A stretch of 32,000 nt of DNA from Xylanibacter ruminicola 23 (lineage in GTDB: Bacteria; Bacteroidota; Bacteroidia; Bacteroidales; Bacteroidaceae): positions 480,001 through 512,000 of the forward strand of contig NC_014033.1 of the NCBI RefSeq assembly GCF_000025925.1, written 5' to 3'. How positions within the stretch are numbered: the first letter of the stretch is position 1; each line of letters opens with the position of its first letter. This document shows positions 6,052 to 8,461 of the stretch, in pieces. The notes beneath the pieces are model-generated. The model saw only the letters and a list, made by a program, of their open reading frames with translations, had not been told where the DNA came from and made no database searches. The position numbers and the translations under genes were made by a program.

Positions 6052-6817
6052 ATTAGTAATTGCAGGACGGGAGTTTAACTCTCGTTTGTTTCTGGGCACA
6101 GGCAAGTTTAACAACAATGTGCTGATGGCCCAGGCTATCGAGGCTTCGGGATCGGAGATGGTTACCGTTGCCATGAAACGTGTGGAACTCGACGACAAGA
6201 ACGACGATTTGCTGACACACATCACCCAGAACCCACGTATACAACTGCTACCCAATACCTCGGGTGTGCGTAATGCTGAAGAGGCGGTGTTTGCTGCCCA
6301 GATGGCCCGCGAGGCCTTTGGCACCAACTGGTTGAAGTTGGAGATACACCCCGACCCACGCTACTTGTTGCCCGACTCGGTTGAGACGCTGAAGGCCACC
6401 GAGCAGTTGGTAAAACTGGGCTTTGTGGTGCTGCCATACTGCCAGGCCGACCCTACGCTGTGTAAGCATCTGGAAGAGGCTGGTGCGGCTACGGTGATGC
6501 CACTGGCTGCCCCCATCGGTACCAACAAGGGTTTGAGAATGAAGGATTTTCTGCAGATTATCATCGACCAGGCCACGGTGCCTGTAGTGGTTGATGCCGG
6601 TATTGGTGCCCCCAGTCATGCTGCCGAGGCCATGGAGATGGGTGCCGACTGCGTGCTGGTGAATACCGCCATTGCCGTTGCAGGCGATCCCGTAAAAATG
6701 GCTGATGCCTTCCGTCAGGCTGTCATCGCCGGTCGCCAGGCCTTCGAGGCAGGCTTAGGAGCCATCGCCGATTGCGCCGAAGCTTCGAGCCCACTCACGG
6801 CGTTTTTAAATGTTTAA
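6044..6817 (+). CDS. thiG: Thiazole synthase
   Basis: 257 aa. [13 protein letters not shown]-terminus, TVAMKRV, LLPNTSG and [13 protein letters not shown] motifs. ATGAGTAA-type 8-nt overlap with thiE. Confidence 0.9.
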
Positions 6818-6840
6818 TGTTTAATGTTTAATTTTTAATG
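6805..6840. repeat. Tandem heptamer array (TTTAATG)n, about 5 units (3 perfect), forward orientation
   Basis: tttaaatg TTTAATG TTTAATG tttaatt tt TTTAATG. It contains the thiG stop (6815-6817) and the thiC ATG (6838-6840). Confidence 0.95.
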
Positions 6841-8424
6841 ATAAACGATCACAAGGCCTATGCTCAGAGAGAGAAGGCTTATATGCAAGGAAATTTGTAT
6901 CCTGATGTAAAGGTGGGTATGACCAAGGTGAACCTGACACCAACGGTGACGAAGGATGCCGATGGCAAAACCCACGTAGAGAAGAACGAACCAGTGTATA
7001 TCTACGATACCAGCGGTCCTTATACCGACCCCAACTATACGGTTGACCTGAAGAAGGGACTGCCACCCATGCGCCAGCAGTGGATTGCCGATCGTGCTCA
7101 GAAGGGGCAGGGCATCACCCAGATGGCGTGTGCCAAGGCAGGCATCATCACTCCCGAGATGGAGTATGTGGCCATTCGCGAAAACATGAACTGCCAGGCA
7201 CTGGGTATCGAGAGTCATATCACTCCCGAATACGTACGCCAGGAGGTGGCACGCGGACGTGCCGTTATCCCCGCTAACATCCATCACCCCGAGAGCGAGC
7301 CGATGATTATCGGACGCAACTTTGCGGTGAAAATCAATACCAATATCGGTAATTCGGCCACGACATCGAGCATCGATGAAGAGGTGGATAAGGCCGTTTG
7401 GTCGTGTAAGTGGGGTGGCGACACGCTGATGGACCTCTCAACGGGTAACAACATTCACGAAACCCGCGAGTGGATTCTGCGTAACTGTCCTGTACCCGTA
7501 GGCACCGTGCCCATCTATCAGGCTTTGGAAAAGGTGGATGGCAAGGTGGAAGACCTCTCGTGGGAGGTGTATCGCGACACACTCATCGAACAGTGCGAGC
7601 AGGGTGTGGATTACTTTACCATCCATGCCGGCATCCGTCGCCACAACGTGCACCTGGCCGATAGCAGATTGTGCGGTATCGTGAGTCGTGGCGGTAGCAT
7701 TATGAGCAAGTGGTGCCTGCTGCACGATAAGGAGAGCTTCCTGTATGAGCACTTTGATGATATCTGCGATATTGTGGCCAAATATGATGTGGCCCTGTCG
7801 CTGGGCGATGGTTTGCGCCCTGGCTGTACAGCCGATGCCAACGATGCCGCCCAGTTTGCCGAACTCGACACCATGGGCGAGCTGGTGGTACGTGCCTGGG
7901 AGAAGAATGTGCAGGCCTTTATCGAGGGTCCCGGTCATGTGCCCATGCATAAAATCAAGGAGAACATGGAGCGCCAGTTGGAGAAGTGCCACGAGGCACC
8001 ATTCTACACCCTCGGACCTATTGTTACCGATATCGCTCCTGGCTACGATCATATTACCAGTGCCATCGGTGGTGCGCAGATAGCCTGGCTGGGAACTGCC
8101 ATGCTCTGCTACGTAACCCCCAAGGAGCATCTGGCCCTGCCTAATAAGGATGATGTGCGCGCAGGTATCATTGCCTATAAGATAGCTGCCCATGCAGCCG
8201 ACCTGGCAAAGGGACACCCCGGTGCCACCATCCGCGATAACGCCCTGTCGAAAGCCCGTTTCGAGTTCCGTTGGCGCGACCAGTTCCACCTGTCGTTGGA
8301 TCCCGAACTGGCGCTGCAGTATTTCACCGAGGCAGGACATACCGATGGCGAGTACTGCACCATGTGCGGCCCTAACTTCTGCGCTGCCAAGCTCACGCAC
8401 GATTTGAGGAAGATTAAACATTAA
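6838..8424 (+). CDS. thiC: Phosphomethylpyrimidine synthase (radical SAM)
   Basis: 528 aa. Conserved ThiC blocks ([27 protein letters not shown]) and the C-terminal CTMCGPNFC Fe-S motif. Confidence 0.92.
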
Positions 8425-8461
8425 ACATTAAACATTAAACATTAAACATTAAACTTTAATG
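8413..8461. repeat. Six perfect ATTAAAC units (reverse complement of the TTTAATG array) followed by one forward TTTAATG
   Basis: attaaac x6 at 8413-8454, then tttaatg at 8455-8461. It contains the thiC stop (8422-8424) and the thiF ATG (8459-8461). CATTAAA-C-TTTAATG is a local 15-nt palindrome. Confidence 0.95.

What the first reader, a model, noticed from the sequence alone, without database searches (positions are those of the whole stretch)
6805..8461. thiC is bracketed by inverted tandem arrays of the heptamer TTTAATG that encode the thiG stop, thiC start, thiC stop and thiF start
Seen in sequence:
- 6805-6840 is about 5 units of TTTAATG (3 perfect).
- 8413-8454 is six perfect ATTAAAC units, the exact reverse complement of that array. 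One forward TTTAATG follows at 8455-8461.
- The thiG stop (AAT GTT TAA, 6815-6817), thiC ATG (6838), thiC stop (AAA CAT TAA, 8422-8424) and thiF ATG (8459) are all made of repeat units.
- 6813-6832 (20 nt) is perfectly complementary to the downstream array in several registers.
- Because 7 is not a multiple of 3, the forward array has TAA and ATG in all three frames, and the reverse array has TAA in all three frames.

Inference, three non-exclusive readings:
(i) The arrays are frame-independent stop/restart spacers. They would provide the AU-rich, unstructured initiation regions that Bacteroidetes use in place of Shine-Dalgarno pairing.
(ii) The two arrays could form a duplex of 20 bp or more in the polycistronic thi mRNA. 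That would loop out exactly the thiC cistron and could be a processing or translation-control site.
(iii) They could be substrates for slipped-strand length variation or for inversion of the 1.6-kb thiC segment.

I do not recall such an arrangement being described for thi operons.
Basis: partly seen in the sequence, partly recalled or inferred. Interest (0 to 1): 0.72.

Follow-up and report, generated by a model that had tools for sequence, protein, structure and literature searches.

The report
Polymorphic heptamer microsatellites flanking thiC
The repeats on both sides of thiC are real, but they are fast-evolving 7-base microsatellites that grew out of the stop-codon ends of neighbouring genes in the rumen bacterium Xylanibacter (Prevotella) ruminicola, which is a known kind of bacterial repeat and not a conserved control element.

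Summary
The sequence observation is correct. There are four in-register TTTAATG units at 6813-6840 (one reads TTTAATT) plus a degenerate unit. There are six perfect ATTAAAC units at 8413-8454 and one forward unit at 8455-8461. These units supply the thiG stop, thiC start, thiC stop and thiF start. A third array at 1127-1160 was missed.

The arrays are heptanucleotide simple-sequence repeats.
- Contigs encoding identical ThiC, ThiF or ThiG carry 6, 6, 6, 5, at least 4, 3 or 2 downstream units. The third array also varies in length.
- Sister lineages have no array, a degenerate one, or a different heptamer (TTCATAA x9) at the same junction.
- Each array starts inside the last codons of the upstream ORF.
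- In genomes that carry TTTAATG arrays, other heptamer arrays with unrelated units outnumber periods 5, 6, 8 and 9 by 10-fold or more.
- Composition-matched heptamers are about as common, and there is no orientation bias relative to genes.

Heptamer over-representation, change in 7-nt steps and position next to start codons are already published (Mrazek 2007; MacGregor 2015).

The two arrays would form a -32 kcal/mol duplex in naked RNA, but the pairing is not conserved. No inversion was seen. The array is not an optimised Bacteroidetes initiation region.

The parts
6805..6812 (+). Degenerate first unit TTTAAATG (8 nt), inside the last codons of thiG
6813..6840 (+). Four in-register heptamers: TTTAATG, TTTAATG, TTTAATT, TTTAATG. 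They hold the thiG stop TAA (6815-6817) and the thiC ATG (6838-6840).
8413..8454 (+). Six perfect ATTAAAC units, the reverse complement of TTTAATG. The first 1.5 units encode the ThiC C-terminus (K-I-K-H), and the stop TAA is at 8422-8424. Copy number varies between strains.
8455..8461 (+). Single TTTAATG unit that supplies the thiF ATG (8459-8461). It is homologous to the ATTAATG unit of the degenerate same-register array in the FD3004-like lineage.
1127..1160 (+). Third array of the same heptamer (TTTAATG, GTTAATG, then TTTAATG x3). On the minus strand it reads CATTAAA and holds the stop codon (1155-1157) of the ROK-kinase ORF 1155-1979. Copy number varies between strains.
1043..1049 (+). 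Solo TTTAATG copy 2 nt from the start codon (1040-1038, minus strand) of the GH2 glycosidase gene. It marks one edge of the 97-nt segment (about 1050-1146) that L211 and L217 lack; the deletion falls between this copy and the array.
5139..5241 (+). TPP riboswitch at the head of the operon thiS-thiE-thiG-thiC-thiF-thiH-tenI-like-thiD. It is the known regulator of the operon and is context, not part of the repeats.

Best explanation
The arrays are heptanucleotide simple-sequence repeats (microsatellites) in the intergenic spacers of Xylanibacter (Prevotella) ruminicola.

Origin (inferred). Each array was seeded by the last 7-10 nt of an ORF, stop codon included:
- thiG ends AAT GTT TAA.
- thiC ends ATT AAA CAT TAA.
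- The ROK kinase ends TTA CAT TAA.
The seed was then amplified head-to-tail, most likely by replication slippage, which in many bacteria favours 7-nt units.

Why the arrays persist (inferred). The unit carries TAA on both strands and ATG on one. Because 7 is not a multiple of 3, any copy number keeps the upstream stop, blocks read-through in all frames and keeps the downstream ATG. Expansion and contraction are therefore nearly neutral for the proteins.

Why the arrays are inverted (inferred). The opposite orientation of the two thiC-flanking arrays follows from the two different stop-codon contexts, GTTTAA versus CATTAA. The core of the unit is a near-palindrome: TTTAAT is the reverse complement of ATTAAA. 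No functional pairing is needed to explain it.

Shown here: the tandem structure, the polymorphism in 7-nt steps, the lineage-specific presence, the heptamer-specific excess and the lack of orientation bias.

Inferred: slippage as the mechanism, and near-neutrality.
For: 1. In the window, every exact tandem array of at least 3 copies with period 4-12 has period 7. In the window plus about 18 kb of flanks, every exact run of at least 2.6 copies with period 5-9 also has period 7.

2. The downstream array has 6, 6, 6, 5, at least 4, 3 or 2 units in contigs encoding the identical ThiC, ThiF or ThiG protein. The two genome-derived copies may be the same record as the window.

3. The interrupted upstream array is identical in the three independent metagenome contigs that carry it (L122, L123, L208), as expected for an interrupted microsatellite.

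4. Array C has three length alleles among 10 contigs encoding the identical ROK protein. Two of those contigs also carry a 97-nt deletion bounded by a 9-nt repeat, AACATTAAA.

5. Close relatives differ at the same junctions.
- L124 (identical ThiC) has TTTAAAG TTCAAAG CTCAAAG upstream and 2 units downstream.
- L125 (96% ThiC identity) has about nine TTCATAA/TTCACAA units upstream and none downstream.
- The FD3004-like lineage has no upstream array and a degenerate downstream one: ATTAAAC ATTAAAG ATTAATC ATTAATG.
- More distant Prevotella carry other 7- or 8-mers or nothing.

6. The seed codons are present in relatives that lack arrays.

7. (TTTAATG)3 occurs in at least 120 loci of species-representative genomes. 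Of these, 91 are Bacteroidota, 32 of them Prevotella/Prevotellaceae.

8. In those loci, other exact heptamer arrays with unrelated units number 43. Periods 5, 6, 8 and 9 number 2, 4, 2 and 1.

9. Composition-matched heptamers are about as common as arrays in viral contigs: 65 for TTTAATG, against 62, at least 120, 45 and 86.

10. There is no orientation bias. 29 arrays lie forward-oriented upstream of a start and 27 reverse-oriented. 19 hold a same-strand stop and 24 an opposite-strand stop.

11. Published work already reports the following (PMC4679880 and PMC4692102):
- Heptamers are the most abundant long SSR class in most genomes.
- They change by indels in 7-nt increments between strains.
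- They are intergenic and often lie just upstream of start codons, including in Bacteroidetes.
Against: - Slippage was not observed directly. It is inferred from allele differences between assemblies, and several of those are low-coverage metagenome contigs (about 3x) that could mis-size a repeat.
- The reason for the 7-nt preference is unexplained. The polymerase-footprint idea of Mrazek et al. is only a hypothesis.
- Only about 41 kb of the source genome was seen (plus about 10 kb from a related strain), so the genome-wide array density is unknown. The chance of two arrays flanking one gene therefore cannot be calculated.
- The predicted inter-array duplex is very stable, so a strain-specific side effect on thi mRNA cannot be excluded.
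- The gene calls behind the orientation statistics are crude (ORFs of at least 100 codons).
Confidence: 0.8

Rival explanations
1. Long-range RNA duplex. In the polycistronic thi mRNA the two arrays pair over 24-28 bp and loop out thiC. This would mask the thiG stop and the thiC initiation region, or create an RNase III site, and so control thiC/thiF expression.
For: - Duplex energy is -32.4 kcal/mol.
- In the MFE structure of 6780-8490, positions 6809-6836 pair with 8409-8436.
- Pairing probability is about 1.0 for 6812-6831 (0.8 or more across 6809-6832) in the naked RNA.
- The arrays alone fold weakly (-3.1 and -2.4 kcal/mol).
- Strains that have the upstream array keep at least 3 downstream units.
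Against: - The pairing is not conserved. L124 (identical ThiC) lacks the upstream array. L125 (96% identity) has a non-complementary heptamer upstream and nothing downstream. The FD3004-like lineage has neither a perfect array nor complementarity.
- L129 has heptamer arrays on both sides of thiC that are not complementary to each other.
- Most arrays elsewhere are solitary. Only 9 of 120 loci have both orientations within 8 kb, and these are mostly array-rich Prevotella.
- The third array in the window has no nearby partner.
- The two arms are 1.6 kb apart across a translated ORF, so co-transcriptional folding and ribosomes should disfavour pairing (inference).
- The co-occurrence in strains comes from only 2-3 lineages.
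Confidence: 0.08
2. Selected translation element. The arrays are kept because they act as frame-independent stop/restart spacers, or as AU-rich unstructured (S1-binding) initiation regions for ribosomes that do not use Shine-Dalgarno pairing. Copy number would tune translational coupling.
For: - The arrays supply TAA and ATG in all frames.
- In 19 of 98 arrays elsewhere, an ATG of the array starts an ORF of at least 100 codons. In 43 of 98 an ORF stops inside the array.
- The arrays are AU-rich and fold weakly on their own.
- Hits are concentrated in Bacteroidota and Cyanobacteria. From my own knowledge these are SD-poor phyla.
- MacGregor proposed the same role for TAACTGA repeats (PMC4679880).
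- The thiC-thiF spacing varies from 34 to 6 nt between strains.
Against: - Orientation is unbiased: 29 forward against 27 reverse upstream of starts. An RNA-level signal should be strand-specific.
- The array gives U at -3 and -6, and G and U at -12 and -13, where A is the positive determinant.
- It adds upstream AUGs, which are depleted in Bacteroidetes initiation regions (PMC6847099). That work is on F. johnsoniae, so transfer to Prevotella is an inference.
- Orthologous junctions work with no array, or with unrelated heptamers that lack both TAA and ATG.
- Composition-matched heptamers without the TAA+ATG combination are equally common as arrays.
Confidence: 0.1
3. Invertible segment. The inverted arrays mediate inversion of the 1.6-kb thiC segment as an on/off switch.
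For: There are inverted repeats 20-28 bp long with 100% identity.
Against: - thiC is collinear with its neighbours (thiG and/or thiF, whichever flank the contig reaches) in the 13 close-relative contigs checked (L122-L125, L208, L221-L228).
- No gene named as a recombinase or invertase appears among the called genes with Pfam names in the roughly 20 kb around the operon. This is a weak check.
- Inversion would only silence an essential-cofactor gene inside an operon that a riboswitch already controls (inference).
Confidence: 0.02

Closest known systems
Heptanucleotide long simple sequence repeats of prokaryotes (Mrazek, Guo and Shah 2007, as summarised in PMC4679880 and PMC4692102)
   Same: - Head-to-tail arrays of a 7-nt unit, longer than chance.
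- Intergenic location.
- Heptamers dominate over other unit lengths.
- Length variation between related strains.
- Replication slippage is the proposed origin.
   Different: - The species named in the summary I read were Burkholderia, Cyanobacteria, Actinobacteria and Xanthomonas. Prevotella and this unit were not mentioned.
- Here the arrays overlap the stop and start codons themselves.
TAACTGA intergenic heptamer repeats of marine Beggiatoaceae, Cyanobacteria and some Bacteroidetes (MacGregor 2015, PMC4679880)
   Same: - Stop-codon-containing heptamer in short intergenic arrays next to start codons.
- The same trio of phyla (Bacteroidetes, Cyanobacteria, Gammaproteobacteria).
- Mixed with other heptamer arrays.
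- Indels in 7-nt increments between strains.
- Absent from the orthologous spacer of close relatives.
   Different: - The unit differs: TTTAATG carries ATG as well as TAA.
- There is no forward-orientation bias here, whereas the Beggiatoa genome shows a strong one.
- Here the arrays begin inside the upstream ORF.
Cyanobacterial STRR heptamers (Calothrix/Nostoc) and the GGGAATC / GGGGA(T/C)T repeats of Xanthomonas and Nostoc (Rehm 2015, PMC4692102)
   Same: - Tandem intergenic heptamers, including inside operons (for example pecE-pecF).
- Occasional inverted pairs.
- Extensive length and sequence variation between close relatives.
   Different: Those units are G-rich and form G-quadruplexes. 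TTTAATG is AT-rich, cannot form a quadruplex, and overlaps coding ends.
Phase-variable contingency loci (SSRs of 1-5 nt in Haemophilus, Neisseria, Moraxella)
   Same: A hypermutable tandem repeat whose copy number changes by slippage.
   Different: Copy-number changes here do not shift any reading frame, and the encoded proteins stay identical. The arrays lie between cistrons, not in an ORF or a promoter spacer. No on/off switch is implied.

Membership tests
Heptanucleotide long simple sequence repeat (LSSR) | Head-to-tail copies of one short unit (1-11 nt), longer than expected by chance | tested here: met
   TRF scores 57, 87 and 63. The two-unit pattern gives 13 hits against 0.18 expected.
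Heptanucleotide long simple sequence repeat (LSSR) | Copy number differs between close relatives in whole-unit steps | tested here: met
   6, 6, 6, 5, at least 4, 3 and 2 units at thiC-thiF with identical ThiC, ThiF or ThiG proteins. There are three length alleles at the ROK array. Caveat: some contigs have low coverage.
Heptanucleotide long simple sequence repeat (LSSR) | Period 7 over-represented relative to neighbouring periods, with many different units | tested here: met
   43 exact non-TTTAATG heptamer arrays against 2, 4, 2 and 1 for periods 5, 6, 8 and 9 in 0.84 Mb of array-bearing genomes. The window has only period-7 arrays. The whole source genome was not available.
TAACTGA-type translational-regulator repeats (MacGregor 2015) | Mostly forward orientation, a few nucleotides upstream of a start codon | tested here: not met
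   29 arrays forward and 27 reverse upstream of starts. 43 of 98 overlap a stop codon.
TAACTGA-type translational-regulator repeats (MacGregor 2015) | The specific unit is repeated, while related heptamers are rarely repeated | tested here: not met
   Composition-matched heptamers are as frequent as arrays in viral contigs. Many unrelated heptamer units occur in the same genomes.
Phase-variable contingency locus | A change in repeat number shifts a reading frame or a promoter spacing and switches a gene on or off | tested here: not met
   All length alleles encode identical ThiG, ThiC, ThiF and ROK proteins. The arrays lie between cistrons inside a riboswitch-led operon. Effects on expression were not testable.
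Conserved long-range RNA stem / RNase III processing site | At least 20 bp of complementarity between the two arms | tested here: met
   -32.4 kcal/mol, with 24-28 bp paired in the MFE structure and the ensemble.
Conserved long-range RNA stem / RNase III processing site | Pairing conserved or covarying in relatives | tested here: not met
   Pairing is lost in L124, L125 and the FD3004-like lineage. The arrays in L129 are not complementary.
Conserved long-range RNA stem / RNase III processing site | RNA ends or cleavage at the stem in vivo | not testable with these tools
   No transcriptome data were available.
Invertible DNA switch | Both orientations of the segment are found in a population | tested here: not met
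   thiC is collinear with thiG and/or thiF in the 13 close-relative contigs checked. Assemblies cannot detect rare inversions.

The most novel reading that the evidence does not exclude
In X. ruminicola 23-type strains the two complementary arrays do pair in the thi mRNA. A 24-28-bp AU-rich duplex would enclose exactly the thiC cistron. It would then be cut by RNase III or would mask the thiC initiation region. Slippage-driven changes in array length would tune ThiC/ThiF output between strains, giving a microsatellite-adjustable long-range RNA switch.

A broader variant is also not excluded. The heptamer-specific expansion shared by Bacteroidota, Cyanobacteria and some Gammaproteobacteria might reflect a dedicated mechanism and not generic polymerase slippage.
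Probability: 0.07. Interest if true: 0.55.

Novelty: new member of a known kind. Interest (0 to 1): 0.25.

Why it matters
Mostly as a caution. Striking symmetric repeats around a gene can be by-products of a genome-wide mutational process and not a control device.

The locus is still a clean natural example of three things:
- How heptamer microsatellites are born from the stop-codon end of an ORF.
- How a unit that carries both TAA and ATG can grow at a cistron junction without damaging either gene.
- How quickly such arrays turn over. There are three different heptamer arrays at one junction among relatives whose ThiC is at least 96% identical.

The arrays could serve as strain-typing (VNTR) markers for rumen Prevotella. 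They explain some contig breaks in metagenome assemblies. The unexplained preference for 7-nt units in Bacteroidota, Cyanobacteria and some Gammaproteobacteria remains an open question that array-rich Prevotella genomes could help to address.

Tried and rejected
- Rfam scan of the window. Only the TPP riboswitch at 5139-5241 was found, and nothing at the arrays.
- Promoter and terminator consensus scan of 4900-12300. Hits were at chance level and none lay at the arrays.
- Full-text search for the bare heptamer gave 4,116 irrelevant papers. Searches for 'heptanucleotide repeat' with Prevotella, for P. ruminicola with tandem repeats, and for the assembly accession found nothing. The Mrazek 2007 PNAS paper is not held, so it is cited only through two papers that summarise it.
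- Walking along the source genome to measure array density. Only window-encoded proteins may be looked up. I gained about 9 kb on the left (L219) and about 10 kb of a related strain on the right (L220). These held no further TTTAATG arrays and one ATTGATA array.
- The 97-nt segment next to the third array as a possible mobile palindromic element. It folds only weakly (z = -1.7) and has no second copy in the window. Deletion between direct heptamer copies is the simpler reading.
- thiC as a mobile cassette. Rejected, because the gene order thiS-E-G-C-F-H is kept in relatives without arrays and GC content is unremarkable.
- TTTAATG as a special heptamer. Rejected, because four composition-matched control heptamers gave 45 to at least 120 array loci against 65 in viral contigs.
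Full report
**1. The observation**

The window comes from Xylanibacter (formerly Prevotella) ruminicola.
- Its ThiC is identical to ADE82207.1/WP_013064194.1 and to a protein of GCA_019973335.1.
- A TPP riboswitch at 5139-5241 heads the operon. The genes are thiS 5207-5425, thiE 5413-6051, thiG 6044-6817, thiC 6838-8424, thiF/moeB-type 8459-9259, thiH 9268-10401, a TenI/ThiE-like gene and thiD.

- Upstream: 6805-6812 is TTTAAATG, followed by TTTAATG, TTTAATG, TTTAATT and TTTAATG up to 6840.
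- Downstream: six perfect ATTAAAC units at 8413-8454, then one TTTAATG at 8455-8461.
- The thiG stop, thiC start, thiC stop and thiF start all lie in repeat units.
- The 20-mer 6813-6832 is complementary to the downstream array in four registers, and the statements about reading frames are correct.
- This is far beyond chance: 13 hits against 0.18 expected.

On the minus strand it holds the stop codon of a ROK-family kinase gene.

**2. The arrays are hypervariable between strains**

Exact-protein look-ups recovered independent assemblies, mostly rumen metagenomes, that encode the identical ThiC, ThiF or ThiG.
- The downstream array has 6 units in the window, L121 and L208. It has 5 in L123, at least 4 in L206 (whose contig starts inside the array), 3 in L122 and 2 in L124. 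L121 comes from the genome assembly that also matches the window, so it may not be independent.
- The upstream array is interrupted by the TTTAATT unit. It is unchanged in the three independent metagenome contigs that carry it (L122, L123, L208). In L124 the same spacer reads TTTAAAG TTCAAAG CTCAAAG.
- Array C has three length alleles among ten contigs encoding the identical ROK kinase.
- Two of those ten contigs lack a 97-nt segment. The deletion joins the array to a solo heptamer copy beside the next start codon and is bounded by the 9-nt repeat AACATTAAA.
- All alleles leave the proteins unchanged.

This is classic microsatellite behaviour: perfect arrays vary and interrupted ones are stable. 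The caveat is that several contigs have only about 3x coverage.

**3. The arrays are lineage-specific and were seeded by ORF ends**

A metagenome scan with ThiC and cluster-member look-ups gave orthologous junctions.
- The FD3004-like sister lineage has thiG ...AAT GTT TAA | AGTTCAAAATATG, which is no array.
- In the same lineage thiC ends ...ATT AAA CAT TAA | AGATTAATCATTAATGG. This is a degenerate four-unit heptamer series: ATTAAAC, ATTAAAG, ATTAATC, ATTAATG.
- The relative with 96% ThiC identity (L125) has about nine TTCATAA/TTCACAA units starting at the same thiG codon. It has no spacer at all between thiC and thiF.
- L129 has TCAATTA-type units upstream and GTGAAAA/T units downstream, which are not complementary to each other.
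- Other Prevotella have an octamer (CTTTTTAC x4), other 7-mers or nothing.

Each array in the window therefore begins inside the last codons of the preceding ORF: thiG AATGTTTAA, thiC ATTAAACATTAA, ROK TTACATTAA. Those seed codons exist in relatives that have no array.

The opposite orientation of the two thiC-flanking arrays follows from the two stop contexts, GTTTAA and CATTAA. The core is a near-palindrome: TTTAAT is the reverse complement of ATTAAA. The single forward unit at 8455-8461 corresponds to the ATTAATG unit of the degenerate same-register series.

**4. This is part of a general heptamer phenomenon**

Of these, 91 are Bacteroidota (32 Prevotella/Prevotellaceae, also Chryseobacterium, Saprospiraceae, Paludibacter and Chitinophagaceae). 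A further 10 are Cyanobacteria and 9 are Pseudomonadota.
- Several genomes appear repeatedly in the list.
- In those loci, with TTTAATG arrays excluded, exact arrays of at least 3 copies number 43 for period 7. They number 13, 2, 4, 2 and 1 for periods 4, 5, 6, 8 and 9. The heptamer units are unrelated to one another, for example TAAACCC x18, TACTCAC x8 and TATGATG x21.
- In the loci selected only by ThiC, period 7 is again the commonest period in the TRF output.
- TTTAATG is not special. In viral contigs, three-unit arrays occur at 65 loci. Four composition-matched heptamers gave 62, at least 120, 45 and 86 loci.
- Orientation relative to genes is unbiased among 98 evaluable arrays. 29 lie forward and 27 reverse upstream of a start. 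19 hold a same-strand stop and 24 an opposite-strand stop. Gene calls there are crude, using ORFs of at least 100 codons.
- Both orientations occur within 8 kb in 9 of 120 loci, mainly array-rich Prevotella genomes. Opposed arrays near each other are therefore not unique to thiC.

**5. Comparison with the literature**

- According to PMC4679880 and PMC4692102, Mrazek et al. (2007) found heptanucleotide repeats to be the most abundant long-SSR class in most prokaryotic genomes. They proposed polymerase-related slippage as the cause.
- MacGregor (2015) described TAACTGA arrays in Beggiatoaceae, Cyanobacteria and Bacteroidetes.
  - They are intergenic, often lie just upstream of start codons and are mixed with other heptamer arrays.
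  - They differ between strains by indels in 7-nt increments and are absent from the orthologous spacers of close relatives.
  - She proposed S1, Csp or CsrA binding.
- Rehm et al. (2015) described G-rich heptamers in Xanthomonas and Nostoc, including inverted pairs and arrays inside operons.

The present arrays match this class on every feature I could test. They differ in unit sequence, in overlapping the stop and start codons, and in lacking an orientation bias. I found no paper on such repeats in Prevotella or in thi operons.

**6. The three readings**

(i) Stop/restart spacer. This is correct as description and is a plausible reason why this unit is tolerated at cistron junctions. It is not supported as a selected signal.
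- Orientation is unbiased.
- The array places U, U, G, U at -3, -6, -12 and -13, where A promotes initiation in Flavobacterium johnsoniae.
- It adds upstream AUGs, which are depleted in Bacteroidetes initiation regions (PMC6847099).
- Transfer of those rules to Prevotella is an inference.

(ii) RNA duplex. In naked RNA it is strongly predicted.
- The duplex energy is -32.4 kcal/mol, and 6809-6836 pairs with 8409-8436 in the MFE structure.
- The pairing probability is about 1.0 for 6812-6831, and thiF's ATG sits in a local hairpin at 8440-8461.
- The pairing is nevertheless absent in the closest relatives (section 3).
- The arms are separated by 1.6 kb of translated ORF.
- I give it about 8%.

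(iii) Slippage is supported (section 2). No inverted thiC was seen in the 13 close-relative contigs checked (L122-L125, L208, L221-L228).

**7. Verdict**

It is a new member of a known kind, and the interest is low to moderate.

Two questions remain open:
- Why 7-nt units are favoured.
- Whether the strain-specific duplex has any side effect on thi mRNA.

Noticed in passing
window about 1050-1146 (L209-L218, about 2340-2436): A 97-nt intergenic segment lies between the ROK-kinase array and a solo heptamer beside the GH2 start codon. It is present in 8 and absent in 2 of the 10 contigs that encode the identical ROK protein. The break is bounded by the 9-nt repeat AACATTAAA. The segment is an imperfect palindrome centred on AAGCTT but folds only weakly (z = -1.7) and has no second copy in the window.
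   Followed up: partly
window 17168-17229: Three direct copies of a motif of about 20 nt (GCTTTCCTTTCRGCGTATTTCT-like) lie in the 270-nt spacer between ORF 16022-17164 and ORF 17434-19089. This may be a regulator-binding array.
   Followed up: no
L125 about 2935-3000; L129 383-414, 2107-2153 and 4057-4088; L127 2957-2992: The orthologous thiC junctions of other Prevotella carry quite different short tandem arrays: TTCATAA/TTCACAA x9, TCAATTA x4, GTGAAAA/T x6 and the octamer CTTTTTAC x4.5. This single junction shows repeated independent array birth or turnover.
   Followed up: partly
L017, L058, L103 (Prevotella and Bacteroidales rumen MAGs): Some rumen Prevotella and Bacteroidales genomes carry 3-5 TTTAATG-type arrays within 8 kb, in both orientations. 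This suggests genome-specific bursts of this unit.
   Followed up: no
L206 position 1; also L013, L047 and L269 array positions at locus ends: Several contigs begin or end inside a heptamer array, which suggests that these repeats break short-read assemblies.
   Followed up: no
L220 4911-4934: A related strain has an ATTGATA x3.4 heptamer array in the spacer between an MFS transporter gene and galK, about 6 kb beyond the right end of the window. It is another heptamer unit in the same species group.
   Followed up: no
window 22001-23000: GC content drops to 0.39, against about 0.52 elsewhere in the window. The region lies between convergent or divergent ORFs ending at about 22464 and starting at about 22882.
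   Followed up: no
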